From Pseudomonadales bacterium (lineage in GTDB: Bacteria; Patescibacteriota; Microgenomatia; UBA1400; PJMF01): a DNA stretch of 64,000 nucleotides. The notes beneath the pieces are model-generated. The model had not been told where the DNA came from. It worked only from the letters and a program-made list of their open reading frames with translations, and searched no databases. This document shows, piece after piece, positions 7,306 to 57,794 of the stretch. The DNA lies in NCBI GenBank assembly GCA_020632255.1, contig JACKFX010000001.1, forward strand, positions 184,216 to 248,215. The letters are read 5' to 3'. How positions within the stretch are numbered: position 1 is the first letter of the stretch; each line of letters begins with the position of its first letter. A program made the position numbers and the translations under genes.

Positions 7306-9135
7306 CTAATTAGGGATTTCAGCCGATGTTTCCATCTTTGATGTACCACAGTTTTGTGAAACTAAGTTTTTGATGTCATCGGGGATGGTATTTGTAGTAT
7401 AGATATATCCAATTGGTGGGTTTAGATGATATCTGTTTGTATCCATGATGGTGTTGTCCTCAAGGTGGAGTTCAGGATTAGTTGAGTAAGCATCGGAGTA
7501 TGAGCTTGGTAACAAGCTGAGAAGGTCAAAGTCGCTGACAATGAGTGCATTTTCTGTAGTAATCATGCAGATGTCTATTTTATGTACAGAGACTGAGCCA
7601 TAGTCGAAGACTTCGACATCGGTATGAGCATGTTGTGTTTGAATGCGGGTTGGGTCCATTTGGGTGTAGAACGGATAAAACAGGTAGTTTTCTATTAGCT
7701 CAGGTGACAAATAGACGTGTGAATAATCTGAGAGGGTGTAGTCTTTGGTGAGTTGGTGGAGAGTAGTTTGAGCGTCTCCTTGCCAAGACAAGTAGGAATC
7801 TTCTGGAAAGTAGCGATACAAATCCACAAAATAGAGTGAGGTGTTGTAGACAATTGTTAACGTTAGACCAAGCAAAGCAATTTCTGTTAGTTGAAGTTGC
7901 TGTGAGATCTTCCATGATGAAAGTTTTTTGGAAAGATACTCGACCCCCACAGTAGCAAAATAAATGTACGCTGGCAACTGAATAAGAGTTCTACCTGAGT
8001 GTGGTACATCATCGCTGAGTGTCGATGGTAAAACACCAAGTAGTAGCCAAAGAAGGAAGAACGTATCAACCTTTTTTCGTTTTGAAAAATAGATTCCTAC
8101 TCCAATAAGTGGAAGGGTTACTAATAATAAATTGCCATGTCTGTTAAAACCATGCCGTGCGCTGAGGGTATTGTCAAACCATACGAATGATGGATCAAAA
8201 TGAACCATATAGTTTTTAGCTAATACATAGGTGCCGGTAATCATTTTGTTTGCAAAGAGGCGAACTTCGGGGAGATTCAGGACTACACTCCGGAAGAGTG
8301 ATTCGTTGGTATCATTTTGAATCATTGGTTTGTTGAGTATGAAAACGGCTTCTGCGCGTGCTCCTGCTCCACTAAAGACCGAAGCTACAAAGATGACTAC
8401 GGTAAAGAGTGCTACAAGCACATAACTACCGAACAATGCTTTTGATGTACTGAAATTCTTCCACACAGTTTTTAAATCAAAGAGCATGAAGTATGAAAAA
8501 AGTAGTAAAGGAACAAATAGCCGAGCTGAGTTATAGGTATACATTGCTAGGAGCAGAACGACGGCGCCACTATATTTGAACAGATTCTTTTTTGAGATAA
8601 ACAATGCTATGCCAGCTACTAAGAAAAAGAAGGACACAATTGGATCCATTGCGGCTCGGCTGTAATGAACAAGCCAGGGTGCGGTTGCGAAAAGAACAAG
8701 ACTCAGTAATTGCAAAAAAGTTTTGTATTTTGATGTCTCAAAGAGTGCAAGTTGTCGAAGCATGAGCCACCAAAAAAAGGTACTGAGTGCACCCATCACT
8801 GCCACTGGCAGACGTGAGGCAAAGGAATTCAGACCAAACAGTGCAATAAATGGAACTTGGAGATAGCTGAGTAGTGCAGGTTTAAAATCACCAAAGGATC
8901 TTAGAAAGATTGGAAAGCTTGTTCCCCACTCATCTTTTCCTGTCTTGAGTAAGCTGAAGGCATTATAAGAGTAGGCAACTTCATCCCAGTTTAATCCTGA
9001 GGGAAAAACATCTAGTTTCCAAAATTTGAACAGCGTGGCACTAATCAGGACTAGTGCAAGAAGTCCAATAGCAACCCACAAAATAACAGTCGATACTTGT
9101 TTAGAATACTTCATTCTCAAAAAAGTATAGCACAC
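7306..9135 (-). CDS. GT-C fold integral-membrane glycosyltransferase (GT39/GT83-like), paralog of 1270-3015
   Basis: 609 aa, multi-TM. Motif NWDEVAYSYNAFSLLKTGKDEWG matches the paralog's DE-loop. Confidence 0.55.
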   Translation of the reverse strand: MCYTFLRMKYSKQVSTVILWVAIGLLALVLISATLFKFWKLDVFPSGLNWDEVAYSYNAFSLLKTGKDEWGTSFPIFLRSFGDFKPALLSYLQVPFIALFGLNSFASRLPVAVMGALSTFFWWLMLRQLALFETSKYKTFLQLLSLVLFATAPWLVHYSRAAMDPIVSFFFLVAGIALFISKKNLFKYSGAVVLLLAMYTYNSARLFVPLLLFSYFMLFDLKTVWKNFSTSKALFGSYVLVALFTVVIFVASVFSGAGARAEAVFILNKPMIQNDTNESLFRSVVLNLPEVRLFANKMITGTYVLAKNYMVHFDPSFVWFDNTLSARHGFNRHGNLLLVTLPLIGVGIYFSKRKKVDTFFLLWLLLGVLPSTLSDDVPHSGRTLIQLPAYIYFATVGVEYLSKKLSSWKISQQLQLTEIALLGLTLTIVYNTSLYFVDLYRYFPEDSYLSWQGDAQTTLHQLTKDYTLSDYSHVYLSPELIENYLFYPFYTQMDPTRIQTQHAHTDVEVFDYGSVSVHKIDICMITTENALIVSDFDLLSLLPSSYSDAYSTNPELHLEDNTIMDTNRYHLNPPIGYIYTTNTIPDDIKNLVSQNCGTSKMETSAEIPN

Positions 9136-47148: not shown

Positions 47149-47596
47149 TTTCTTCGGCTATTTGAGATGCACGTGATTCAATTTCATCTAGGTAGGTGTG
47201 GTAGGTATTGCGATCCCACATTTCTATGTACGAATAACTTCCTACTACCACAACATCTTTTTGAATCTTGGCAAAATCAGTCAAGTACTCGGGCAGTTGT
47301 ACTCGACCATTTCCATCCGGAGTCACTTCTTGCGCTTCATTTGTCATTAAACGAATAAAGTCACGATGAGTTTTTTTTGTAAACGAGCGGGCTTCTAGTT
47401 TCTCGAGTTCTGCAGTGAATTTTTCTGCTTCAAAGAGGAATAATCCTCCATCAAGACCTCGAGTTATGATCCAGGCTGATGCTTTCGATCGAAAAGCCTT
47501 TGGTAGTGATACTCTGCCTTTGTCTTCAACTCTGTGATAATATTTACCTATATACATTTTCTTATCAGACAGTTTACCACTTTTTACCACTATCAA
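47138..47596 (-). CDS. mraZ: transcriptional regulator MraZ
   Basis: MYIGKYYHRVEDKGRVSLPKAFR, duplicated MraZ/SpoVT-AbrB domains, first gene of the dcw cluster. Confidence 0.85.
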   Translation of the reverse strand: MIVVKSGKLSDKKMYIGKYYHRVEDKGRVSLPKAFRSKASAWIITRGLDGGLFLFEAEKFTAELEKLEARSFTKKTHRDFIRLMTNEAQEVTPDGNGRVQLPEYLTDFAKIQKDVVVVGSYSYIEMWDRNTYHTYLDEIESRASQIAEEIEN

Positions 47597-47686
47597 GAAT
47601 AAGTATGCTACACCCCAAGCATTTTGTAAACACTAAGATGACCCGAAAACATAGGCCAAATAGCTAATATGATATAATAAATAGCT

Positions 47687-48697
47687 ATGAGACGTTTGGA
47701 GCAAATATCACAGCAGTCGTCGTCTGAGCGTTTTCAATTGGGAAACGCAGAAATTTTTATTGGACCTTCATTTACTTGTGGAACTTCGCACATAAATATT
47801 GAAGAATCTGGACTTTCTACTTTATTAGATAAAAACAGTTTTTCACTCTCACCAGTGATGCATAAGTTTATCCAGAATGAAGGTGAACCACTTGTAAACT
47901 ATCTGGGAGCTATTATATTGTTTTTTACTAGGATTGAAAGAAAATATGTTCAAAAATCAGAAACTTGTGGTAGGTGTGATGTATTTGGCGTACCAAGAAT
48001 TTGTATTTGCAGTAAAGATACCTTTTATAGGATTCGTGGAAATCCACCTCCACCAGAATGGGCGGGAATATATGTCTGGTTTGATGGAACAGTAGTATGT
48101 CAAGCCGATTACTTAGTCGCCGCACTGTCAGGCACTGAGTTTGTTGGAAAACAAGTAGATGGGAGATCATTTATTCGTGAAATAGGACATGAACTACGAC
48201 ATTCGTATCAAGACATACTTTTCTATTATGAAAATGAAAGTTTATGCAAACATGCACAGAAATATGATTTATGGTTCTTTGAAGGTTTAGTTGAAGCAAT
48301 GGATACCACAAGTGTAGGTATGTCATTTAGTACTTTTTCGGAGCGATTTAGACCATTTTTACTAAAACATCCAAATTTTTCGTTTATGGATATTAGATCT
48401 TCGTTTTGGAATTACGATACCTCTCCGGTAATTGATAACCTGATGTATCAGTATTCTCGATTTTTTGTACAGTATTTGCTTCCTTTTTTTGATAGAGCTC
48501 TGCTTTCAACGTTGCGGGGTCATCATATTTCAGCGGAGTTCTCAAGCATATATATCATGATTGAACAATTCTCTGATGCTTATTCTGATGGTTATCGGGG
48601 GACATTCTTGGAGTTCATATCCGAAAAAATTGGGTTAACTGTTGAATTACTTCAGCAAATAGAGGCAGATTTTCAGAAGAGTATACTTGCCTGCTAA
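47687..48697 (+). CDS. hypothetical protein with HEXXH zinc-metallopeptidase-like motif
   Basis: 336 aa, GHELRHSYQD (HEXXH) in the middle of the protein. Otherwise unrecognised. Confidence 0.4.
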   Translation: MRRLEQISQQSSSERFQLGNAEIFIGPSFTCGTSHINIEESGLSTLLDKNSFSLSPVMHKFIQNEGEPLVNYLGAIILFFTRIERKYVQKSETCGRCDVFGVPRICICSKDTFYRIRGNPPPPEWAGIYVWFDGTVVCQADYLVAALSGTEFVGKQVDGRSFIREIGHELRHSYQDILFYYENESLCKHAQKYDLWFFEGLVEAMDTTSVGMSFSTFSERFRPFLLKHPNFSFMDIRSSFWNYDTSPVIDNLMYQYSRFFVQYLLPFFDRALLSTLRGHHISAEFSSIYIMIEQFSDAYSDGYRGTFLEFISEKIGLTVELLQQIEADFQKSILAC

Positions 48698-48840
48698 CAG
48701 TGATTCATAGCATTTCATAAAAAATATGGTTATCTGGTGTATGCTCATAGATTGTGAATGTGGTCTATCATAAAAAGCTCTTCAGGCAGGAAGAGCTTTT
48801 TTAAATGTATTATGTATTTTGATTAATTGGATACAACCAC

Positions 48841-48935
48841 ATATGCGTCCATCAACTCAACAGTTGTGCTGGTAGTTTTGCCATCCATTGCGGTCTCGAA
48901 GCTTGTCCACTCGGTTCCATTCCAGCCTGCAATGA
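48841..48935 (-). pseudogene. orphan duplicate of the 3' (C-terminal) ~95 nt of the 264-aa gene at 54511-55305
   Basis: Near-identical, same orientation as 54519-54613 (ccatcaactcaacagttg(t/c)gctggtagttttgccatcca(t/c)tgcggtctcgaagcttgtccactcggttccattccagcc), then diverges. No ORF context. Confidence 0.65.
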
Positions 48936-48960
48936 AGATTGTTCTTCACGAATGGTGGCT

Positions 48961-49005
48961 GCCAAGGAAACACCGTAGCTAGCGTAGCGTACTGCGGGGA
49001 GGACG
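48961..49005. repeat. ~45-bp repeat 'R', copy 2
   Basis: ggaaacaCCGTAGcTAGCGTAGCGTACTGCGGgGAGGACGTCgTTAA, matching 17368-17412 at the right end of IS200-like element 2. Confidence 0.7.
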
Positions 49006-49052
49006 TCGTTAAGTACTTGAAAATCTTCTTTAATTAAATGAAATAAGGATAT

Positions 49053-49343
49053 TTATAAGGATAATTGCTTTTCTATATCAAGAATTTCATTTTTTGAGAA
49101 AAGACTAAGTAGCATAGAAATATATGAGTTTCTTTCTTTCAAATCAAGAATTTCTTCCCAAGGATTAAATTTGAGATGAAGTTCTAGTGGATGTGGTTCG
49201 TTTATTACTCTTTTAGTAGTGTCAATTTTTATGGCTGTAACTTTGGCTTGTTCCTCAGTACCGAGTTTGGGAACGTCATGTTTATTGATAACTAAAACTT
49301 GATCGGCTAACTTTGCAATTGGGTATATTTCAGCTTGGGTCAT
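49053..49343 (-). CDS. small (~96 aa) partner protein of the giant repeat protein; candidate immunity/antidote-type protein (inference)
   Basis: Start set at the ATG at 49343 (MTQAEIYPIAKLAD...), not the TTG used by the track. AGGAGA Shine-Dalgarno overlaps the giant gene's TAG stop. 60-70% identical paralog at 54062-54355. Confidence 0.6.
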   Translation of the reverse strand: MTQAEIYPIAKLADQVLVINKHDVPKLGTEEQAKVTAIKIDTTKRVINEPHPLELHLKFNPWEEILDLKERNSYISMLLSLFSKNEILDIEKQLSL

Positions 49344-49350
49344 TATTCTC

Positions 49351-52300
49351 CTAGTACACAACTAATTCTACTGTATGATCTGGGTTTTCTCTATTATATC
49401 TATCAACCGCTGTTCTCATTTCAGAAATTTCATACTCAGCTATACCATTACCTAGTGATAAGTGAATTGAGGTAATGTCAGTCATATCTAAGCTTCCATG
49501 AATTTGAATTTCTGAATACGAACTATCGAGTGCAGGTACCAGTGATGGAACTGAGAAGTCAGTCTTGGTTGCCTCCCAAAATCTGATCACATTGTATTTT
49601 TTAAGTGCAGACAAGTAATGAGGTTTTTGAACTGGAGAAGGCGGTCGGTCGTTATTTAAACTATCACCAAAAAGGAAAGTAGACTTCTTTTTGGCCTCAT
49701 TAGCAATTCTACAGCCGGCACGACCATATTGTACGACTGTATTTTCGGGAGGATTTTTTCCCACAGAGTTTAAAACGCCATTATTATCTGGGGTAAAGTA
49801 GCCATAAATAGTTCTTGATTGAGGTTTGTAACTTGTTTCATCTGGAAAACCAAAAGTTCTTAGTTCAAAAGCAGCTCTGTAAGAATTAGAAAGACACCCT
49901 CCTGAAGTTTGGGTTTCAAACTGGCTCTTCCATCTTTTGTCTCTTGGAAGAATATGATTCAGGAGAACGCTTACATCTGTGGCTCTAAAGAGTTGTGATT
50001 GGTCCATAGAAACTTCAGTATAGCGTTGAATCTCATCTAAGAATTCTATCAGTGATAGCCCTTCTTTTCTAAGAATTGTTCTTATGTCTCCATGCTCTTC
50101 GATAGATTCTAAGAATCTTTGCTCGTAAATGAGGATATTCTTAAGCAGAGTGATCTCAAGATCAGGATTTGCTTCGACGTTCATTTTTACACTATCCCAA
50201 TCAGCCATATATTCGATGGTGACATCGGATAATTTATTAATATCGAGTTTGTTTACTTTCTCATCATCGGGGAATTTACGTTTTATTTCAATAAGTTGAA
50301 AGAGAGCCTTTTCTTTAACTTTTTCAAAGGCTTCGGCTTGTTCTGCATTTCTTTCTCTTCTGAGAGAAAACATTCTTTTTCGCTTTTCAATTCTTTCTTT
50401 CGAAAAATACGTTATATCAAAAGTCGTACCAAGATATTGTGCAGCCGAAAGGAACATATGAATTTTTTGATGTTCTTGTGCATATGTGATTAGTTCTTTG
50501 GTTTTTACATCCCTGTCATATCCGGAAAGGCTGTCATAATCTATTCCCAAGTAGGAAGCAACAATCTTATTTTCAACCACGCTAAAGGCAAAAGTCATCA
50601 TTTGTCGAAGATCTGTTAGATCACTTTCGTTTAAGTCTGTGGGCAAATCTTCAATTAGTTTAATGTTGTTAACACGTTCTTCGATTGATTTTTGTCTTTC
50701 AGTAACTTGCTCATTTGTAAAGTACGACAGATTAATATCATCATGAGTGTACTTCATACTTGCAAGCAACTTATCGATGATGGATCTTTTTCCAGCAAGC
50801 TCTATTACTTTGCTAATAGTTGAATTAAGGTAGTGACCAGAAACATCCGAGTATTTGATTCCAATCAGGCCGCAAATTTTTTTTATCTGCTGATTTTCCT
50901 TAACAACACTATAAATAGTTTCAATCAGTACTTCAGTATCCGATGAATTTAAGTTTTCAGGAAATTGGGTGCTTAGTTGTTCTATTTTTCTTTTTCTTTC
51001 TTCACCAGCACTACTCGTGAATTCAGTGATATCAATTTCCTCTTTGATATATTTGATAGCAGAAACAAATTTTTGCATCGCATTGTTATTCTGACTTGAA
51101 TCAAGCATTATATGAACTTTATTGTGTAAATCTCCATCAAGAGATGCATATTCGATGTTTAAGTAGTGTGAGAGTAGTTTGACTTCGACAGAAGCAAACG
51201 ATTCATTTGAGATAATTTGCTTTAAGCAAACAAAACTGTAGTCGTCAAATGTATTCGGGATACTTTCGTTGATTTGAATTTGTTCAGCCATTTCAACGAT
51301 TATTTGATTTCTTCTCTCAATTTCTGCAATTGAGAAAGAATCAAGACCATCATCGTTTAAGACGAATTTTGCAGCTGCGATAAACTTGTTAAGTTGTAAC
51401 CTCTTTTTTGCAATAACAAGCAGGTGCTCAACCATATCACTCTCATAGTAATCATCAATTTCAAAGTAATCTACACCGACAAAAGCGCTGATCAAGACAA
51501 TCTGACTTTTAGAGAGAGCATTTTTGGTTTTTTTCTTCAATTCTTCAAATAATTCTGGGTCAAGATCTTCTGGGAAGTCGTTAACGGATTCCAGCATCTT
51601 TTGTTGACGTTTCTCAATATTGCTTTCGGTAAATTGGGAACAATCAAGATCAGGATTAAGAGAACTAAAAGCGGAAAGGAATTTATTGGTAAGAAAGTGC
51701 TCTTGTGAGTATTTTAGAAGTTTACCTGCTTTTTTGATGGCGCTAACATCACTGAACTCATCAGGACCTATATTCATATATGCTAGTATGACCCTGATAT
51801 CATCCTCAGAAATGTTTTCAAGAACAAGAGGGTATAAGATGTGGTATGTTAATTCATCCAGTTTCTGAGGAAAATCCTCATTAAATACAATTTTATCAGC
51901 TTTTTCTTGGACAATCCTTTTTGCTGCTTCTATGCTTTCTATTGTAAATTCTGATAAAGAAATATGATCAATTGTCACCTCAACAGCTGACAAAAATTTA
52001 TTAACCTGTGCTTTTTCTTTGACTAATCGAAGTGTATTCTGCACTTTATCACTTATATAATAGCCTTCGACATCTTCCATACTAAGACCTAATGCATCTA
52101 AAATTTGCATAAGTTCAGCTGCAGTTATTTCAAACTGGATTTCTTCAAGAAGTCTAGTTTCATAGTAAGCGTCAATAGTAGTTGGATATTTATTAGCTGT
52201 TGCCTCCATCTCCTTTTGTTTGTTATCGATATATTCTTGGGTGAATCGCGTGAGATCGAGGTCTTTTTCGAGGTACACTACGGCTGAAAGAAGTTTATCT

Positions 52301-53952
52301 AGTAGTGAGTGTTCATTTGCATACTCAATAAGACTAGTGATTTTTTGATGGGTAAAATCGCCCTCTAGACTGTCGTAGTCAGCGCCAATATAGGCAGCGA
52401 TAACTTTTGAGTCCTCTTTCTCAATTTTCCAAGAGAGCTCACTAACTAAGTTATTAAGATACAATTGGCTCACTGATTTTGGATACTCACTACGCAATGT
52501 AATTGCTATTACGGATTCTTCAATATATCTACGTCTTTTATCAATATCTTCTTTTGTATAGTATGTCAAGTCAAGTCCATCAAAGAGAATGCTAATTGCT
52601 GAGAGAAATTTGTGTGTCACTTTTTTTTCTTGGACTTGATTGAAAATATTTGCAATTTCTCTGGAATAAGTTCGATCTTCAATACTTACGTATGGAATAT
52701 CAAGAAAGGTGCATAATGAGTTGATTATGTCATCATCAAGAAATGCATCCTTAATCTCTTCAAGAAGAATGTTAAAACTAGTTTGATCTAGTGTAGGATA
52801 AAAAACATCTTGAGATGCTTCTAAAGCAGCAGCTCTCTTTTTTAAAGATTCTTTTGTAAAAATCTTAAAGTCACCTGGGATATATTCTTTTCGGTAACTT
52901 GCGAAATAGATTACAGCTGACAGAAGCTTATGCATCACTGCATGATCTTGTGCATATCTAATTATGTTTTTTGCTTCAGTAGAGTAGTGTGACGCTTCCA
53001 CCTCTTCGTAGTCTGCTCCAATAAATGCAACGATTCTTTTGGCTTCATATTCAGAATGTATATTTCTTGAAATGACTCTCGTTAGTTTTGTTATACTTAA
53101 AACATCAAGTGATTCTGGGTAATCTTCTTCTTTGGCAGCAAGCTTTTCATTCAGTTTGAAAATTTCGTGGTAAAATTCTAAATCGACCTCATCTTTTTTG
53201 ATGTATTGCACTGCTGATAAAAACCTATCAAAAAGAGAATTGCCTTCTGCAAATTCAATCAGCGATGCAAATTCAATCTGCGATGAGATGCTTGTCGTGT
53301 GTGTTTCAGAAACAATCAACTCAGGATCTGCCCCGATATATTGAGCAATTACCTTTAATTCTGACTTTGTAAGTTTGTGTTGTAATTGTTCTGTCAGTGT
53401 ACGAATGTCATGTCCACTTAATGATTTTGGAAATTCATCAATGTAGGGAATTTTATCAGCTTCTTCTACTAGTTCCTCTTTTTCTCTCCTAGTTCTTGCT
53501 ATATCAAGCGCCATCAGTCTTGCGGGGGAGTCCGCATATAAACCAGGTGTTGAAATAGAACTATATGGTTCGCGTCTAGTCAATATATCTCTTATATCGT
53601 AGGAATCAAAAGGAGCATATAAATCGGATTTTTTCTCTTCTGATGTAGGGAATTTAATATCTGGGAAATCTTCTCCAATTCTAATTTTAAGGTCATCAGT
53701 TTCAAACCTAATACCTGGGAAATCTTCTCTAATTTCAAGGCCCTCGGTAGTAGCGGGTGTCATTATATCTACATCACCTAAAGGCTCTGAAATAGTTTCT
53801 TCTGGGTGAGTTTTTTTCATTGCGCGTCGAAGCATTCTAGCGAGTATACTTTTGCCAAATGAATACGGTGTATCGTCATCACCTATTTTGTAGTCAGGTT
53901 TATCTGGGTGTGACTCAATTAGCTTCTTGAATTCGTGAAATTCTGTTGTCAT
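49351..53952 (-). CDS. giant (1533 aa) repeat protein: unique N-terminal region, ~10 tandem ~105-aa novel repeats, distinct ~250-aa C-terminal domain
   Basis: Repeats share (I/V)xx(Y/F)(I/L)G(A/I)DY(D/E), then ~30 aa later (K/R)(F/L)LSA(V/I)xY(I/L/F), then D(L/I)(T/D)x(F/Y)(T/S)xE. No signal peptide, no known motif seen. TATAAT 7 nt upstream of the ATG suggests a leaderless transcript. Confidence 0.7.
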   Translation of the reverse strand: MTTEFHEFKKLIESHPDKPDYKIGDDDTPYSFGKSILARMLRRAMKKTHPEETISEPLGDVDIMTPATTEGLEIREDFPGIRFETDDLKIRIGEDFPDIKFPTSEEKKSDLYAPFDSYDIRDILTRREPYSSISTPGLYADSPARLMALDIARTRREKEELVEEADKIPYIDEFPKSLSGHDIRTLTEQLQHKLTKSELKVIAQYIGADPELIVSETHTTSISSQIEFASLIEFAEGNSLFDRFLSAVQYIKKDEVDLEFYHEIFKLNEKLAAKEEDYPESLDVLSITKLTRVISRNIHSEYEAKRIVAFIGADYEEVEASHYSTEAKNIIRYAQDHAVMHKLLSAVIYFASYRKEYIPGDFKIFTKESLKKRAAALEASQDVFYPTLDQTSFNILLEEIKDAFLDDDIINSLCTFLDIPYVSIEDRTYSREIANIFNQVQEKKVTHKFLSAISILFDGLDLTYYTKEDIDKRRRYIEESVIAITLRSEYPKSVSQLYLNNLVSELSWKIEKEDSKVIAAYIGADYDSLEGDFTHQKITSLIEYANEHSLLDKLLSAVVYLEKDLDLTRFTQEYIDNKQKEMEATANKYPTTIDAYYETRLLEEIQFEITAAELMQILDALGLSMEDVEGYYISDKVQNTLRLVKEKAQVNKFLSAVEVTIDHISLSEFTIESIEAAKRIVQEKADKIVFNEDFPQKLDELTYHILYPLVLENISEDDIRVILAYMNIGPDEFSDVSAIKKAGKLLKYSQEHFLTNKFLSAFSSLNPDLDCSQFTESNIEKRQQKMLESVNDFPEDLDPELFEELKKKTKNALSKSQIVLISAFVGVDYFEIDDYYESDMVEHLLVIAKKRLQLNKFIAAAKFVLNDDGLDSFSIAEIERRNQIIVEMAEQIQINESIPNTFDDYSFVCLKQIISNESFASVEVKLLSHYLNIEYASLDGDLHNKVHIMLDSSQNNNAMQKFVSAIKYIKEEIDITEFTSSAGEERKRKIEQLSTQFPENLNSSDTEVLIETIYSVVKENQQIKKICGLIGIKYSDVSGHYLNSTISKVIELAGKRSIIDKLLASMKYTHDDINLSYFTNEQVTERQKSIEERVNNIKLIEDLPTDLNESDLTDLRQMMTFAFSVVENKIVASYLGIDYDSLSGYDRDVKTKELITYAQEHQKIHMFLSAAQYLGTTFDITYFSKERIEKRKRMFSLRRERNAEQAEAFEKVKEKALFQLIEIKRKFPDDEKVNKLDINKLSDVTIEYMADWDSVKMNVEANPDLEITLLKNILIYEQRFLESIEEHGDIRTILRKEGLSLIEFLDEIQRYTEVSMDQSQLFRATDVSVLLNHILPRDKRWKSQFETQTSGGCLSNSYRAAFELRTFGFPDETSYKPQSRTIYGYFTPDNNGVLNSVGKNPPENTVVQYGRAGCRIANEAKKKSTFLFGDSLNNDRPPSPVQKPHYLSALKKYNVIRFWEATKTDFSVPSLVPALDSSYSEIQIHGSLDMTDITSIHLSLGNGIAEYEISEMRTAVDRYNRENPDHTVELVVY

Positions 53953-53959
53953 AGAAAAA

Positions 53960-53965
53960 ATTATA
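53960..53965 (-). promoter_or_regulatory. -10 box (TATAAT) 7 nt upstream of the giant gene's ATG; possible leaderless transcript
   Basis: Minus strand reads taggTATAATtttttctATGACA. No Shine-Dalgarno is present. Confidence 0.35.
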
Positions 53966-54061
53966 CCTATTTTTTATTGGCTATGTAATAACAAAAAAAG
54001 GAATTTTTTATAGTAAAATATTTTGACCAAGTACTGAATTAAAACAAGCTTAACTGTAACT

Positions 54062-54355
54062 TTATTTTTTCAGTTGTGATTCGATATTACTCATTGTTTC
54101 TTTGGAGAAAAGTCTTAAAAGCATAGACATATAGGCATTTCTCTCATTTTGATCAACAATTTCTTCCCAAGGATTAAATTTGAGATGAAGTTCTAGTGGA
54201 TGTGGTTCGTTTATTACTCTTTTAGTAGTGTCAATTTTTATAGCCTTAACAGTAGCTTGTTTTCTAGGATTTCCAAGTTTAGTTACGTCACTTTTATTAA
54301 TTACTAACAGTAAGTCGGCAAGTTTAGCTATTGGGTAAATTTCGGGTTTTTTCAT
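54062..54355 (-). CDS. small partner-protein paralog (97 aa) of 49053-49343
   Basis: MKKPEIYPIAKLADLLLVINKSDV...KIDTTKRVINEPHPLELHLKFNPWEEI is colinear with the partner protein. Confidence 0.6.
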   Translation of the reverse strand: MKKPEIYPIAKLADLLLVINKSDVTKLGNPRKQATVKAIKIDTTKRVINEPHPLELHLKFNPWEEIVDQNERNAYMSMLLRLFSKETMSNIESQLKK

Positions 54356-54369
54356 ATTAAGTATATAAC

Positions 54370-54500
54370 CATCTCAACGGGATAATCTGGATATAGTTGA
54401 TTATACTCTAAGACTGCTTGTTTCATCTGACCAATTTATTTTCGGGTGATATTATTATTCTTTGATAGATGAATTGAGGTAATATCATTCATGGTAACTT
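54370..54500 (-). pseudogene. degenerate remnant of a giant-protein C-terminal coding end (orphan C-terminal cassette)
   Basis: 54380-54500 aligns by eye at ~65-70% identity with the last ~45 codons of the giant gene (49365-49500), e.g. gata(g/a)(a/g)tgaattgaggtaat(a/g)tca, with indels and frameshifts. No ORF remains. Confidence 0.55.
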
Positions 54501-54510
54501 CACCATTGAA

Positions 54511-55305
54511 TTAGTTGCCCACCACAACATACGCTTCCATCAACTCAACAGTTGCGCTGGTAGTTTTGCCATCCACTGCGGTCTCGAAGCTTGTCCACTC
54601 GGTTCCATTCCAGCCCATGATGGTGAGTGCACCTTCATGTTTTGCACGGATGCTGAGTTCTGCTTCACCTGAAAGAATTGTATTACTGGTCAAAGAATAA
54701 ACTTCTGAAGCTAACTTACCTTCAAGTTCGCCTGGGTATCCTGGAGAGTTGTAGATAATCAGCAAGCTGTTTCGAGCCAAATCTTCAGAATCAATCTGAA
54801 AAAAGGCATCTTTGGAAGCAAAGGCTGTTTCGCCGTTGTTTTCAATGTATTTCCAGTCAGACTTAAGGTCATAGTTGTTGTCTCCTGTGTAGAAAGCTCG
54901 GAGTTCTCCCCCCTTCACATCTTCGTGATAGGTACATGATCCACCTGCACTACAGCTGCCAAGCAAGATTTTATCTTCTGCAGGCAGGCTCATCAGGTCA
55001 ATCTCACCAAAGGCACCCTGGAGGAGTGAACCCGTTTGGTACTCAAGTTCGTACTCTGCAGCATCTGCAGCCAGTTTAACTTCTTCAACTTCAATGACAA
55101 CATTTCGGCTATCAACAGGGACGATGCGCATGTATGGGCGTTCTGCGACGTCGATGACATTGTAGTTACGTATAGTGGTTTTCTTTTTTGTTGGCTCCTC
55201 TGTAGCTGTTTCTGCAGGTTTGCGGGTCATCATGTAGGCACCGACACCGATACCGAGTAACACCAAGACAGCTACGACACCTGCAATAACTTTTTTATTC
55301 TTCAT
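54511..55305 (-). CDS. hypothetical membrane-anchored/secreted protein (264 aa)
   Basis: N-terminal TM/signal anchor (VIAGVVAVLVLLGIGVGAYMM), then a mostly beta-type domain. Its 3' end is duplicated at 48841-48935. Confidence 0.5.
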   Translation of the reverse strand: MKNKKVIAGVVAVLVLLGIGVGAYMMTRKPAETATEEPTKKKTTIRNYNVIDVAERPYMRIVPVDSRNVVIEVEEVKLAADAAEYELEYQTGSLLQGAFGEIDLMSLPAEDKILLGSCSAGGSCTYHEDVKGGELRAFYTGDNNYDLKSDWKYIENNGETAFASKDAFFQIDSEDLARNSLLIIYNSPGYPGELEGKLASEVYSLTSNTILSGEAELSIRAKHEGALTIMGWNGTEWTSFETAVDGKTTSATVELMEAYVVVGN

Positions 55306-55350: not shown

Positions 55351-56760
55351 CTACTCTAGCATGGAGGCAATGTATGCTTCAAGATCGGCGATCTTGATTC
55401 GGACTTGATCTGTTGTGTCACGGTCACGTACAGTGACACTCTCATCTTCGAGAGATTCAAAGTCAACGGTAATACACATTGGGGTTCCAATTTCATCCTG
55501 ATACAGGTAGCGTTTACCAATATTTCCCCGCTCGTCCCAAGTTATAGTAAACTTGGCTGAGAGTTGGTTGTAGATTTCTTTTGCCTTGTGTACGAGTTCG
55601 GGTTTGTTCTTGAGTAGTGGGAACACAGCAGCCTTGTAGGGAGCCAAGGATGGTTTGAGTTTAAGCACCGTACGGTTTCGCTCTGCATCTTCTTCATATG
55701 CATCGGTTAAGACCATCAAGAAAGCACGGTTAATACCCAGCGCAGGCTCGATCACATGAGGAATAAAAACTTCGTTCGTATGTGGATCTCTGTACTCAAG
55801 TGATTGGCCTGAGTGTTCCATGTGTTGCTTGAGGTCATAGTCAGTTCGGTAGGCAATGCCCCAGAGTTCCTTCCAACCAAAACTAAAGTTGTAGTCGAGG
55901 TCGTAAGTGTCTTTACTGTAGAAGCTGCGTTCGGCATCAGAGTGACGGCGCCATCGCAGGTTCTCTTCTCGGACACCAAGTACAGCAGTCACAAAAGTGT
56001 GCATGTCGAACTTCCACTCTTCAAGGAGCTCTTCCCACTTGGTTTGGTTTGGGTTGAAGAAGTACTCGATTTCTGCTTGTTCGAACTCGAGGGTTCGGAA
56101 GACAAACTGACCGGTAGTAATTTCATTGCGGAAGCTTTTACCCATCTGACCCACACCAAACGGCAACTGCACTCGAGTAGAGTCTAAAATATTGCGGAAG
56201 TTAGTAAAGATTCCTTGGGCGGTTTCTCCGCGCATGTAGATCTTAGATTTGTCGTCGGCAACAGTACCGATGGCGGTTTCAAACAGGAGGTTAAAGGCTT
56301 TTGGCTCGGTGACGGCGTTACCATCAGGGCTCAAGATCTTGTTTTCGGTAATGAAAGCTCCCATTTCCTCTACGGAAAGGTCTTCGACTACCATACTTTC
56401 AAACTCAGTTTTGCCATTTTTAACCTGGCGTGCTATCCAGTCTTCAATTAAGTGATCAGCGCGGTAGCGTTTTTTGGTGACTACATCATCTACTAGAGGA
56501 TCACTGAATGATCCCACATGGCCAGACGCAACCCAGGTGTCAGGATGCAGTAAGATTTGTGAATCAAGACCGACCATATCTGCACGGCGAGAAATAAAGG
56601 TATCCCACCAGGCATTCTTAATGTTGCGGAGCAACTCAGAACCTAATGGACCGTAGTCGTATGAGTTGGCGAGACCACCATAAATGTTTGATGTGGGATA
56701 GACGAACCCGCGGCGTTTGGCGAGAGCTACAATAGTGTCGAGTGATGGTTGCTTTGGCAT
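55351..56760 (-). CDS. glyQS: glycyl-tRNA synthetase, alpha2 (GlyQS) type
   Basis: MPKQPSLDTIVALAKRRGFVYPTSNIYGGLANSYDYGPLGSELLRNIKNAWW, class II motifs. Start moved to the internal ATG (56760) because the upstream in-frame extension overlaps the leader RNA. Confidence 0.85.
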   Translation of the reverse strand: MPKQPSLDTIVALAKRRGFVYPTSNIYGGLANSYDYGPLGSELLRNIKNAWWDTFISRRADMVGLDSQILLHPDTWVASGHVGSFSDPLVDDVVTKKRYRADHLIEDWIARQVKNGKTEFESMVVEDLSVEEMGAFITENKILSPDGNAVTEPKAFNLLFETAIGTVADDKSKIYMRGETAQGIFTNFRNILDSTRVQLPFGVGQMGKSFRNEITTGQFVFRTLEFEQAEIEYFFNPNQTKWEELLEEWKFDMHTFVTAVLGVREENLRWRRHSDAERSFYSKDTYDLDYNFSFGWKELWGIAYRTDYDLKQHMEHSGQSLEYRDPHTNEVFIPHVIEPALGINRAFLMVLTDAYEEDAERNRTVLKLKPSLAPYKAAVFPLLKNKPELVHKAKEIYNQLSAKFTITWDERGNIGKRYLYQDEIGTPMCITVDFESLEDESVTVRDRDTTDQVRIKIADLEAYIASMLE

Positions 56761-56966
56761 AGAACCCTTTCTGGTTTTACCCCTTGGGATATAAATAATC
56801 CCTACAGTACTAATCATACGTGTAGGGACCCTGCCGGGCGGTTCCACCCTCGTTCCACGCGGTTGCATTTGCAGGTGCGTGACACTTTTTTGTGAGAATA
56901 CTTACTTCCTTACTTGAGAGAAAGGTCACTTGCCAAGGGTGAAAGCTATCTGGCCAAATTATAGCA
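56761..56966 (-). promoter_or_regulatory. glyQS leader: putative glycine T-box riboswitch with extended -10 promoter and terminator
   Basis: On the minus strand: TGCTATAAT (56958-56966); specifier-like CTTGGCAAG with GGC followed by A; T-box-like AGGGTGGAACCGCC (56836-56849); terminator TCCCTACA...TGTAGGGA (56799-56828) then ATTATTTAT. Confidence 0.55.
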
Positions 56967-57212: not shown

Positions 57213-57794
57213 ATGAACTTTTACGGTTTTGATCGCACAGGAAAGTTGGTTTTTGGATTTGAAGTCAAAGAAGAAAAAAATGAACGCAGCAGCCATCCGC
57301 AACGCAAAGTTGTAGTTGGCAAGCGTTTCTTAAATGTTCGTTGGCCTGTACAAGCCAACAAGGACGGCCGAATCTTGGCCGGCTCCTTCGATTTATCCAA
57401 CCGGTTCCCCACCATCGTCAATAAAGGCGATGATGGGGGAAATAATACTGCCATCATCTTCGATGCTTCTGGCTTGCCGATGTGCAAGCTGGAAGTTAAG
57501 ATTTATCGTGAAAACGAAGAAGTCGAGCCAGAAGTGTATTTGGCTGACTTTGGGGAAGGAGTTGGGACGAAATTTGTTACAGCTCTTGTAACACTTCATG
57601 AGGGTGATGAGGTTGAAGTAACTTCATCCTATCGCGGCGACGAGTACGTCGTTGCAAAAATCACCTGGGAAGATGGAAAGCCGGTTCGCTGGCAAGCCTC
57701 TTCTCAAGAACTGGCGAAGATGAAAACTGCCCAGTCCCACAAAACGGCTGACCGCACGCGGCGGCGCCTGAATTGGGAACAAAAACATAAATAA
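57213..57794 (+). CDS. hypothetical protein (193 aa)
   Basis: Strong Shine-Dalgarno (AAGGAGaattgaaATG). Terminator follows directly. No recognisable motif. Confidence 0.5.
   Translation: MNFYGFDRTGKLVFGFEVKEEKNERSSHPQRKVVVGKRFLNVRWPVQANKDGRILAGSFDLSNRFPTIVNKGDDGGNNTAIIFDASGLPMCKLEVKIYRENEEVEPEVYLADFGEGVGTKFVTALVTLHEGDEVEVTSSYRGDEYVVAKITWEDGKPVRWQASSQELAKMKTAQSHKTADRTRRRLNWEQKHK

What the first reader, a model, noticed from the sequence alone, without database searches (positions are those of the whole stretch)
49053..53952. Giant 1533-aa protein built from ~10 novel tandem repeats, translationally coupled to a ~96-aa partner
The giant ORF has a unique N-terminal ~190 aa, then ten ~105-aa repeats, then a distinct ~250-aa C-terminal domain. 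Each repeat carries three shared sub-motifs: (I/V)xx(Y/F)(I/L)G(A/I)DY(D/E); (K/R)(F/L)LSA(V/I)xY; and D(L/I)(T/D)x(F/Y)(T/S)xE. I recognise no enzymatic, secretion or adhesin signature. The gene's TAG stop is embedded in the AGGAGA Shine-Dalgarno of the downstream small gene (ATG at 49343), which indicates tight translational coupling. It also appears to be transcribed leaderless (TATAAT 7 nt before the ATG). A large protein with a variable C-terminal domain followed by a coupled small ORF is the architecture of polymorphic toxin/immunity pairs, and also of some two-gene defence systems. The repeat family itself looks undescribed.
Basis: partly seen in the sequence, partly recalled or inferred. 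Interest (0 to 1): 0.85.

Follow-up and report, generated by a model that had tools for sequence, protein, structure and literature searches.

The report
Repeat-rich ADP-ribosyltransferase with small partner
A candidate-phyla-radiation bacterium carries a strain-variable 1,533-residue protein with ten adaptor-like helical repeats and a SopF-type ADP-ribosylating enzyme domain at its end, always followed by a tiny conserved partner gene; it is most likely a toxin-and-antidote style conflict module built largely from known parts, not a wholly new protein family.

Summary
An intact 1533-aa ORF (49351-53952, -) has a 180-aa head, ten divergent 99-106-aa repeats and a 325-aa tail. Its TAG stop overlaps the Shine-Dalgarno of a 96-aa gene.

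The interpretation needs correcting in three places:
- The tail is enzymatic. It is a DUF3626/SopF-family ADP-ribosyltransferase (ART) domain. The AF2 model (pLDDT 95) matches SopF best, and the three SopF NAD-binding residues are conserved.
- The repeats are not an undescribed family. They are divergent copies of Pfam EAD7, an adaptor domain of bacterial conflict systems.
- The ART plus small partner is the conserved unit, seen in about 20 loci. The N-terminus is the variable part: short, NUDIX, Topo-I, phage MuF/portal, or here EAD7 x10.

A second small-gene paralogue lies upstream (54062-54355), next to a decayed ART remnant. A natural haplotype (L016/L017) has lost the giant by one crossover between the two small genes. 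The only relative with the same architecture (L018/L019) carries an in-frame TAG.

My best reading is an intracellular ART toxin/effector with a co-translated neutralising partner (confidence about 0.5). The partner family has no known relative in sequence or fold. I class this as a new variant of a known kind.

The parts
49351..53952 (-). Giant gene, 1533 aa, intact ORF (stop TAG at 49351-49353)
   Evidence: An identical protein, P0001, is on a Logan contig.
53413..53952 (-). N-terminal unique region, aa 1-180. Acidic, with no TM segment or signal peptide. Contains short EDFP motifs like those at the repeat boundaries.
   Evidence: maximum Kyte-Doolittle 19-mer 1.23; no Pfam hit
50329..53412 (-). 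Array of ten divergent EAD7-like repeats (aa 181-1208) with alternating ~99/~105-aa units
   Evidence: EAD7: whole protein 46.2 bits against a cutoff of 32. R10 scores 27.8 bits over model positions 1-55 of 62 and R4 scores 22.3 bits. 6 of 19 repeats hit EAD7.
49354..50328 (-). C-terminal DUF3626/SopF-family ADP-ribosyltransferase domain (aa 1209-1533): a helical N-subdomain plus the ART core
49804..49809 (-). I1382-Y1383 of the RTIYGYF motif, equivalent to SopF Y224 (nicotinamide contact)
49726..49728 (-). Y1409 of the QYGRAG motif, equivalent to SopF Y240
49510..49512 (-). E1481 of the YSEIQIHG motif, equivalent to the SopF catalytic residue E325
49053..49343 (-). Small partner gene B (96 aa, pI 5.6) with the invariant family motif HLKFNPWEEI. 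Its Shine-Dalgarno AGGAG (49348-49352) overlaps the giant's TAG.
54062..54355 (-). Small partner gene A (97 aa, pI 9.6). It is a paralogue of gene B (74% aa identity; dN/dS 0.2) lying upstream of the giant.
54356..54510 (-). Pseudogene remnant of the last ~50 codons of an ART gene, with an in-frame stop, directly upstream of small gene A
54158..54241 (-). 84-nt stretch identical to 49149-49232 in small gene B. The crossover that removed the giant gene in haplotype L016/L017 lies in this interval.
54510..54615 (.). 106-nt direct repeat (3' end of the 264-aa membrane-protein gene). Its second copy is at 48822-48927 (90.6% identity). The two copies bracket the whole ART/small-gene island.
53960..53989 (-). 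Promoter-like site ATTACA-18-TATAAT ending 7 nt before the ATG (consensus match only)

Best explanation
The locus is a chromosomal, strain-variable conflict module of a Patescibacterium (Woesebacteria-like). The conserved core is a two-gene unit. The first gene encodes a SopF/DUF3626-family ADP-ribosyltransferase. The second, translationally coupled to it, encodes a ~100-aa partner carrying an invariant HLKFNPWEE motif.

Shown:
- the fold and family of the enzyme domain
- the intact NAD-binding Tyr/Tyr/Glu residues
- the obligate adjacency of the two genes across about 20 loci
- their patchy distribution, duplication and decay
- loss of the giant gene by recombination between two flanking partner genes.

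Inferred:
- The enzyme uses NAD+ to ADP-ribosylate a cellular macromolecule and is harmful when free.
- The partner is made stoichiometrically from the same mRNA and binds and neutralises it, as an antitoxin or immunity protein would.
- In this lineage the enzyme has acquired an N-terminal array of ten EAD7-like helical adaptor modules.
- By analogy with the EAD/Death-like coupling principle, the array is a multivalent protein-protein interaction platform. It would tether, oligomerise or gate the effector in response to a trigger such as phage infection.
- The protein has no signal peptide or membrane segment, so it probably acts inside the producing cell.
For: Enzyme domain:
- 705 representatives match the tail at E<=1e-3.
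- 36 of 52 long homologues hit PF12294 DUF3626, the best at 1.6e-61.
- The family profile hits the SopF structure 7dn8 (E 3.4e-4) with motifs aligned.
- The AF2 model has pLDDT 95.1 and pTM 0.92. Its best PDB matches are SopF 7dn9/7dn8 (E 1e-6), then the DarT toxins, CopC/OspC3 and Tpt1.
- SopF Y224, Y240 and E325 are needed for activity (PMC11937434). They align to Y1383, Y1409 and E1481.

Pairing:
- The small-gene homologue lies directly downstream of the ART gene in L002-L015. The reading frames are 4 nt apart or overlap by 3-7 nt in most of them.
- The same holds in L018 and in L102 and L103, where the ART proteins are 815 and 607 aa.
- Distant versions follow Topo-I and NUDIX fusion proteins.

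Conflict-module behaviour:
- Only 11 GTDB species genomes carry the module.
- L011 has two pairs. L013 has a frameshifted ART with an intact partner. L004 has extra ART fragments.
- The window itself has an ART remnant beside an intact small gene A, which is under purifying selection (dN/dS 0.2).
- L018 and L019 share a nonsense codon in the giant, with the partner intact.
- Haplotype L016/L017 lacks the giant.
- The island is low in GC: 34-37% against 40-46% in the flanks.

Effector character of the domain: in viral contigs it is the C-terminal cargo of MuF, portal, NUDIX and second-ART fusion proteins.

Repeats: EAD7 match. EADs are described as homotypic coupling adaptors fused to effectors (PMC7159879).

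Location: no TM segment or signal peptide.
Against: - No toxicity, binding or ADP-ribosylation has been shown.
- The partner is more conserved than the enzyme (54% against 47% mean identity; more conserved in 85% of 66 comparisons). It also has a 10-residue invariant motif. This is unusual for antitoxins and immunity proteins and would fit a cofactor or substrate equally well.
- SopF itself needs an activating protein cofactor (ARF; PMC10333799).
- No EAD7-bearing NTPase or other core sensor is present in the 64-kb window.
- The EAD7 match is marginal per repeat (best 27.8 bits against a cutoff of 32).
- Preferential decay of the ART gene may only reflect that it is a 3-15 times larger mutational target.
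Confidence: 0.5

Rival explanations
1. Enzyme plus obligate cofactor, chaperone or substrate. The small protein does not neutralise the ART. It activates, stabilises or targets it, as ARF GTPases activate SopF, or it is itself the ADP-ribosylation target. The pair would then be a regulatory NAD+-dependent modification system, not a toxin/antidote pair.
For: - The partner is more conserved than the enzyme and carries an invariant decapeptide.
- The pairing persists even in phage-type Topo-I and NUDIX fusion proteins. An injected effector would need a helper there as much as an immunity protein.
- SopF requires a protein cofactor.
- The partner has no antitoxin-like DNA-binding or hydrolase domain.
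Against: - The patchy distribution, tandem or divergent duplicates, pseudogenised ARTs beside intact partners, and recombinational loss are typical of selfish or conflict modules, not of regulatory enzymes.
- Small gene A stays under purifying selection next to a dead ART.
- The closest structural relatives after SopF are the DarT toxins.
Confidence: 0.22
2. Exported or contact-delivered polymorphic-toxin-like effector. The episymbiotic bacterium delivers the giant protein into its host or into competitors. The repeats form an extended stalk or delivery scaffold. The small protein is the immunity protein, and small gene A is an orphan immunity gene.
For: - The layout is a C-terminal toxin-type domain followed by a small downstream gene, with an extra orphan partner gene and a toxin-gene remnant in the same locus.
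- The same domain is cargo of phage MuF and portal fusions, the architecture of MuF polymorphic toxins (PMC5576092 and PMC3482391, listed).
- SopF is a translocated effector.
Against: - There is no signal peptide, TM segment or known trafficking domain (PAAR, Rhs, LXG, WXG, TPS, MuF) in the giant or in the short cellular homologues.
- The two proteins sharing the repeats have the same tail, so no C-terminal polymorphism is seen.
- The scans that could have detected relatives with these repeats and a different tail found none. A profile search with the repeats alone was uninformative.
- The repeats match an intracellular adaptor family.
- The partner is slowly evolving.
Confidence: 0.18
3. Decaying remnant of a phage or mobile-element polyvalent protein. 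It would have no current cellular function and simply be in the process of being lost.
For: - The island is low in GC and bracketed by 106-nt direct repeats.
- The giant is absent from a near-identical haplotype.
- The only relative with the same architecture carries a nonsense codon.
- The domain is common in viral contigs.
Against: - The 4.6-kb ORF is fully intact in the window and its catalytic residues are conserved.
- All ten repeats are still recognisable by a profile built from a relative only 30-35% identical, which implies long-term constraint.
- No phage structural, integrase or MuF genes are nearby.
- The neighbours are core genes: glyS and the mraZ-dcw cluster.
Confidence: 0.08

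Closest known systems
SopF (Salmonella T3SS effector; Pfam PF12294 DUF3626; PDB 7DN8/7DN9)
   Same: It has the same ART fold and is the best structural match. The Y-Y-E NAD+-contacting residues are conserved. The I-Y-E type triad makes it diphtheria-toxin-like rather than R-S-E.
   Different: Identity is only ~15%. SopF is a 374-aa secreted effector that targets the eukaryotic V-ATPase and is activated by host ARF. The protein here is bacterial-intrinsic, has a 1200-aa N-terminal extension, and is tied to a dedicated small partner gene that SopF lacks.
ART-type toxin-antitoxin modules such as DarT-DarG (ParT-ParS named from my own knowledge)
   Same: Two-gene operon logic, with an ART-fold toxin and an adjacent neutraliser. 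DarT is the next-best structural neighbour. The genomic distribution is sporadic and decay-prone.
   Different: The partner is not a macrodomain or an Xre/HTH antitoxin and has no recognisable fold relative. It is more conserved than the enzyme. No toxicity data exist.
Effector-associated domain 7 (EAD7, PF19960) of NTP-dependent conflict systems (Kaur et al. 2020, PMC7159879; Kaur et al. 2021, PMC8195603)
   Same: A small non-enzymatic adaptor domain (described as all-alpha for EAD7) fused to the terminus of an enzymatic effector. The sequence matches the Pfam model.
   Different: There are ten tandem copies, each extended by a ~40-aa linker, instead of one copy. No second EAD7 copy on a VMAP, STAND or GAP1 core protein is present in the window. 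The host is a reduced-genome CPR bacterium, whereas those systems are described as preponderant in multicellular prokaryotes (PMC7159879 abstract).
Phage MuF/portal-fused and polyvalent proteins with C-terminal effector domains (Jamet et al. 2017, PMC5576092; Iyer et al. 2017, PMC5512222; Iyer et al. 2022, PMC9503650)
   Same: The same DUF3626 ART domain sits at the C-terminus of large multidomain proteins containing NUDIX, Topo-I, a second ART, MuF or portal domains. In at least some of them a small homologous ORF follows.
   Different: The window protein has no virion or packaging domain and lies among core chromosomal genes. Its N-terminal module is an adaptor repeat array not seen in any of the 149 representatives or 79 viral loci examined.

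Membership tests
DUF3626 / SopF-family ADP-ribosyltransferase | Sequence match to PF12294 | tested here: met
   The window protein alone is below threshold (16.1 bits against 27). Its homologues link it firmly: 36 of 52 hit PF12294, the best at 1.6e-61. The family profile hits SopF chain 7dn8_C at E 3.4e-4.
DUF3626 / SopF-family ADP-ribosyltransferase | ART fold closest to SopF | tested here: met
   AF2 model with pLDDT 95.1. Foldseek PDB ranks 1-2 are SopF 7dn9/7dn8 (E ~1e-6, TM 0.49-0.54), followed by DarT, CopC/OspC3 and Tpt1.
DUF3626 / SopF-family ADP-ribosyltransferase | Conservation of the NAD+-contacting residues (SopF Y224, Y240, E325) | tested here: met
   Y1383, Y1409 and E1481 align to them. 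They are invariant or nearly invariant in the family alignment.
DUF3626 / SopF-family ADP-ribosyltransferase | NAD+-dependent ADP-ribosyl transfer | not testable with these tools
   Needs biochemistry.
EAD7 adaptor (PF19960) / EAD-coupled conflict systems | Match to the EAD7 model | tested here: met
   The whole protein scores 46.2 bits against a gathering score of 32. The best single repeat scores 27.8 bits over model positions 1-55 of 62. 6 of 19 repeats (window plus L018) hit EAD7, and no other family is hit by more than one repeat. The per-domain evidence is marginal.
EAD7 adaptor (PF19960) / EAD-coupled conflict systems | Fused terminally to an enzymatic effector | tested here: met
   The repeats are N-terminal to the ART domain.
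EAD7 adaptor (PF19960) / EAD-coupled conflict systems | [quoted passage not shown] | tested here: not met
   There is no other hit of the repeat profile and no NTPase core in the 64-kb window. The rest of the genome could not be searched.
Polymorphic toxin system | N-terminal secretion or trafficking domain | tested here: not met
   No Pfam trafficking domain, signal peptide or TM segment.
Polymorphic toxin system | Conserved N-terminal region with varying C-terminal toxin domains among relatives | tested here: not met
   Only two proteins carry the repeats (window; L018/L019), and both end in the same ART (59% identity). The whole-protein search and the metagenome scan found no further member. 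The profile search with the repeats alone was uninformative.
Polymorphic toxin system | Small gene immediately downstream, plus orphan cassettes | tested here: met
   There is a conserved downstream partner. An orphan small gene A and an ART remnant lie in the same locus. An immunity function has not been tested.
Toxin-antitoxin module (ART type) | Adjacent co-oriented, tightly spaced gene pair with patchy, duplicated and decaying distribution | tested here: met
Toxin-antitoxin module (ART type) | Toxin activity neutralised by direct action of the partner | not testable with these tools
Known defence systems (PADLOC) | Match to a catalogued defence protein model | tested here: not met
   Only chance-level hits (BrxB E 0.01, HORMA E 0.26) for the giant, and none for the partner.

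The most novel reading that the evidence does not exclude
The ten-fold EAD7 array is a self-contained, NTPase-independent, Death-fold-like assembly platform. On a trigger such as a phage protein, the repeats nucleate a higher-order oligomer that displaces the small FNPW-motif protein, itself a new class of ART inhibitor, and releases a SopF-type ADP-ribosyltransferase. This would be a new type of abortive-infection system in reduced-genome CPR bacteria. It would also be the first cellular, non-virulence role for the DUF3626 ART family.
Probability: 0.15. Interest if true: 0.75.

Novelty: new variant of a known kind. Interest (0 to 1): 0.55.

Why it matters
Four points would matter if the reading holds.
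- DUF3626 is known functionally only through SopF, a virulence effector that acts on a eukaryotic target. These data show that the family is mostly a bacterial and phage conflict domain. In Patescibacteria it is locked to a dedicated ~100-aa partner with an invariant motif and no known fold relative. That partner is a candidate new ART inhibitor or cofactor that is easy to test.
- A tandem array of ten EAD7-like adaptors on one effector is an architecture not described for EADs. It occurs in a lineage with a minimal genome, where such 'apoptosis-like' adaptors are not expected.
- The natural with/without-giant haplotypes give a ready-made comparison for function.
- The parts are mostly known families and no activity has been shown, so this is a good lead, not a surprise of the first rank.

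Tried and rejected
- Whole-protein search of the 5.8-billion-protein set returned only the protein itself.
- A profile of the ten repeats searched against the same set returned nothing, not even the parent protein, so that result is uninformative.
The scan with the whole protein found one ART-only relative.
The second AF2 job then went to the partner alone, so no structure of a repeat unit was obtained.
- I tested whether the repeats derive from the ART domain's own helical N-subdomain, because of the similar 'A..LG.S.EE' motif. hhalign gave probability 2%, so I rejected the idea.
- PADLOC, NCBIfam and PHROGs gave nothing significant for the giant, either small gene or the 336-aa neighbour. 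The 264-aa neighbour had only far-sub-threshold hits.
- A direct PDB sequence search with the single tail sequence gave nothing. Only the family profile reached SopF.
- I considered an R-S-E type ART on the basis of the SRTIYGY / STFLF / SEIQ motifs. I dropped it in favour of the SopF I-Y-E type after the alignment and fold match.
- I considered stop-codon recoding for the TAG in L018. A CAG-to-TAG change at a conserved Gln is a simpler explanation.
Full report
**1. What is in the sequence**

The minus strand between 49053 and 53952 holds an uninterrupted 1533-codon ORF (ATG 53952, TAG 49351-49353). A 96-codon ORF follows, starting at ATG 49343. The junction reads GTGTAC-TAG-GAGAATA-ATG, so the giant's stop lies inside an AGGAG Shine-Dalgarno four bases from the small gene's ATG. 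Alignment with 29 homologues supports that ATG as the start, rather than the TTG at 49361.

A TATAAT hexamer ends 7 nt before the giant's ATG. However, sigma-70-like matches in this AT-rich stretch are no more frequent than in shuffled sequence, so the leaderless idea stays untested.

The region from 48 to 54 kb has 34-37% G+C, against 40-46% around it. The neighbours are core genes: glyS (55351-56868) on one side and mraZ-rsmH-PBP-murE on the other. The rest of the window holds DnaE, IleRS, GatAB, FtsAZ and a DUF4012 protein. Near-identical contigs are labelled Candidatus Woesebacteria. All this points to the chromosome of a Patescibacterium.

**2. The repeats**

Anchoring on the LSA motif gives ten units (aa 181-1208) of 99-106 residues and 16-35% pairwise identity. 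A profile built only from the nine repeats of an independent relative (L018) recovers all ten units (E 2e-8 to 5e-23 for a database of 1e6) and nothing in 200 shuffles. The repeat count is therefore confirmed without circularity.

Short and long units alternate in both proteins. Long units end in a '..I.I.EDFP' linker. In L018 two double units are much more alike than the rest, so the array grows by duplicating a ~204-aa pair.

The repeats are not an unknown family:
- The protein passes the gathering score of Pfam PF19960, Effector-associated domain 7 (46.2 against 32 bits).
- Repeat 10 matches model positions 1-55 of 62 (27.8 bits) and repeat 4 scores 22.3 bits.
- Among the 19 repeats of the two proteins, six hit EAD7 and no other family is hit more than once.

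EAD7 is one of the small non-enzymatic adaptor domains that Kaur et al. defined; they describe it as all-alpha. They proposed that these adaptors couple effectors to NTPase cores by homotypic contacts, by analogy with Death-fold domains (PMC7159879, PMC8195603). Each unit here is an EAD7-like core of about 60 residues plus a linker of about 40 residues.

**3. The C-terminal domain is an ADP-ribosyltransferase**

An exhaustive HMMER search with aa 1209-1533 found 705 cluster representatives at E<=1e-3. Of 52 long ones, 36 hit Pfam DUF3626, the best at 1.6e-61. DUF3626 is the domain of the Salmonella effector SopF (PMC6682159), an ADP-ribosyltransferase with an I-Y-E triad (PMC10333799).

A profile of 44 family members hits the SopF chain of PDB 7DN8 (E 3.4e-4). 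The motifs RPIYGY/RPIYAA, YG/YGK and YtEvQyHG/YIEAHIHG line up. The AlphaFold model built on that alignment is very confident (pLDDT 95.1, pTM 0.92). Its best PDB matches are SopF 7DN9/7DN8 (E about 1e-6), then the DarT DNA-ADP-ribosylating toxins, CopC/OspC3 and tRNA 2'-phosphotransferase.

The SopF residues whose mutation largely blocks its ADP-ribosylation activity are Y224, Y240 and E325. I placed them in the sequence from the published mutagenesis primers (PMC11937434). They correspond to Y1383, Y1409 and E1481. These are invariant or nearly so across the family. The statement that there is no enzymatic signature is therefore wrong.

**4. The conserved unit is ART plus small partner; the N-terminus varies**

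The 96-aa protein has about 30 homologue clusters. All are about 100 aa, all come from Patescibacteria-type assemblies, and all share an invariant HLKFNPWEEI block.

The partner lies directly downstream of a DUF3626 protein in these loci:
- In all eleven GTDB genomes that carry it and in three metagenome contigs, the upstream DUF3626 reading frame is 300-480 codons. The two reading frames are 4 nt apart or overlap by 3-7 nt in most of them.
- It also follows larger relatives: a 607-aa protein in L103, and an 815-aa protein in L102, where the partner carries a C-terminal extension.
- Diverged versions that keep only an F-N-x-W/F core follow a Topo-I/DUF5661/ART protein (L023/L024, E 9e-8), a NUDIX/ART protein (L022, weak) and, judged by eye, a NUDIX/Topo-I/ART protein (L101).

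Across the family, the part in front of the ART is short and low in complexity, or NUDIX, Topo-I, a second ART, a kinase-like domain, or, in viral contigs, MuF and portal domains. None of the 149 representatives or 79 viral loci has the EAD7-like repeats, apart from one close relative.

That relative (L018/L019, from two independent samples) has the same architecture: a head, nine repeats, an ART 59% identical to this one, and then a 96-aa partner. Its ORF is broken by one in-frame TAG at a conserved Gln codon.

The data show the reverse: a conserved tip and partner, with a variable front.

**5.

- The 97-aa ORF upstream of the giant (54062-54355) is a paralogue of the partner (74% identity, pI 9.6 against 5.6). 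It has evolved under purifying selection (dN/dS 0.2, dS 0.93).
- Immediately upstream of it (54356-54510) lies the decayed last ~50 codons of another ART gene, with an in-frame stop.
- The two small genes share an 84-nt stretch with no differences (54158-54241 and 49149-49232), while their flanks are about 70% identical.
- Contigs L016/L017 (Woesebacteria MAG GCA_020429005.1 and another sample) match the window's flanks almost perfectly but lack the giant. They carry one hybrid small gene in which 106 consecutive informative sites are A-like and the next ~70 are B-like. The switch falls inside the identical stretch. The giant is therefore a presence/absence polymorphism produced by a single homologous crossover between its flanking partner genes.
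- A 106-nt copy of the 3' end of the upstream 264-aa membrane-protein gene recurs downstream of small gene B (90.6% identity). The two copies bracket the whole island.

**6. Mechanism**

Shown:
- an intact SopF-type ART domain
- obligate adjacency and translational coupling to a conserved partner
- sporadic occurrence (11 species genomes)
- two pairs in one locus (L011), a frameshifted ART with an intact partner (L013), and ART fragments (L004, window)
- a nonsense allele in the only relative with the same architecture (L018/L019)
- recombinational loss of the giant
- no signal peptide or TM segment.

Inferred: the ART is a harmful NAD+-dependent modifier, and the partner, made from the same mRNA, keeps it in check. 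The EAD7 array would be a multivalent interaction platform that tethers or oligomerises the effector or senses a trigger. I put about 0.5 on this toxin/neutraliser conflict-module reading.

The main counter-evidence is that the partner is more conserved than the enzyme (54% against 47% identity; 85% of 66 comparisons). It also resembles no antitoxin, immunity protein or any solved or viral predicted structure. That keeps a cofactor, chaperone or substrate role alive (about 0.22), especially since SopF itself needs a protein activator. An exported polymorphic-toxin-like effector (about 0.18) fits the orphan cassettes and the phage MuF parallels, but it lacks any trafficking domain and any C-terminal polymorphism. 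A dying mobile-element remnant (about 0.08) is hard to reconcile with a perfectly intact 4.6-kb ORF whose repeats remain profile-detectable at 30-35% identity.

**7. Comparison with known systems, and novelty**

- The catalytic domain is a new, distant member of a known family (DUF3626/SopF).
- The two-gene logic works like ART toxin-antitoxin pairs such as DarTG, but the partner is of a different, undescribed kind.
- The repeats are EAD7-like. They meet the sequence and 'fused to an effector' criteria for EADs. They do not meet the 'second copy on a core NTPase' criterion within the window. Ten tandem copies is also an architecture I did not find described.
- No PADLOC model matches.

Overall this is a new variant of a known kind. 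I score interest at 0.55: the partner family and the EAD7 array in a minimal-genome bacterium are good, testable leads, but no activity has been demonstrated and most of the parts have names.

Noticed in passing
window 54062-54355 (-) and 54356-54510 (-): A second, intact copy of the small partner gene lies upstream of the giant (97 aa, pI 9.6, dN/dS 0.2 against the downstream copy). It is preceded by a ~50-codon pseudogene remnant of an ART C-terminus with an in-frame stop.
   Followed up: yes
L016 and L017 against window 47551-54930: These near-identical contigs from other samples lack the giant gene. They carry one hybrid small gene (5' part like copy A, 3' part like copy B), produced by a clean single crossover inside an 84-nt identical stretch. 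This is a natural deletion or insertion haplotype.
   Followed up: yes
window 54510-54615 and 48822-48927: A 106-nt direct repeat (90.6% identity). The 3' end of the 264-aa membrane-protein gene is duplicated downstream of small gene B, so the two copies bracket the low-GC island. This may be the footprint of how the island arrived.
   Followed up: partly
L018 nt 2910-2912; same codon in L019: The only relative with the same architecture (~1375 aa, nine repeats) has a single in-frame TAG at a conserved Gln codon, shared by two independent samples. It is either a fixed nonsense allele or read through. I did not resolve which.
   Followed up: partly
window 54158-54241 against 49149-49232: The two small-gene paralogues are 100% identical over 84 nt (encoding IKIDTTKRVINEPHPLELHLKFNPWEEI), while their flanks are about 70% identical (dS about 0.9). 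This suggests recent gene conversion between the copies.
   Followed up: partly
Alignment A1 (long DUF3626 homologues, e.g. P0140 N-terminus): Many 600-1200-aa relatives share an N-terminal domain with the consensus LGGSS...KGFVLDCLL.NWDV.G...DNI....DG.V.RIDNGG.L..RARG..K. It looks like a kinase-like catalytic core but is not captured by Pfam, apart from one Kinase-PolyVal hit. It is often combined with NUDIX.
   Followed up: no
L011 4094-7297; L013 6070-7279; L004 3777-4137: Other Patescibacteria show two divergently arranged ART+partner pairs (L011), an ART split into three frames beside an intact partner (L013), and extra ART fragments downstream of the partner (L004). The module turns over quickly.
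   Followed up: partly
L102 6524-7141: Here the partner domain is the N-terminal half of a 205-aa protein that has an extra ~100-aa C-terminal region of unknown nature.
   Followed up: no
window 47687-48697 (+), 54511-55305 (-), 7306-9135 (-), 57213-57794 (+): These ORFs (336, 264, 609 and 193 aa) have no significant family match. The 264-aa ORF gave only far-sub-threshold hits and may have an N-terminal membrane segment (weak Insulin_TMD and FliL hits over residues 2-74). The 336-aa ORF converges on small gene B and is conserved next to it in L016.
   Followed up: no
(tool behaviour): The profile search with the ten repeats returned no hit at all, not even the parent protein that is present in the database. 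Absence of hits from that search should not be read as absence of relatives.
   Followed up: no
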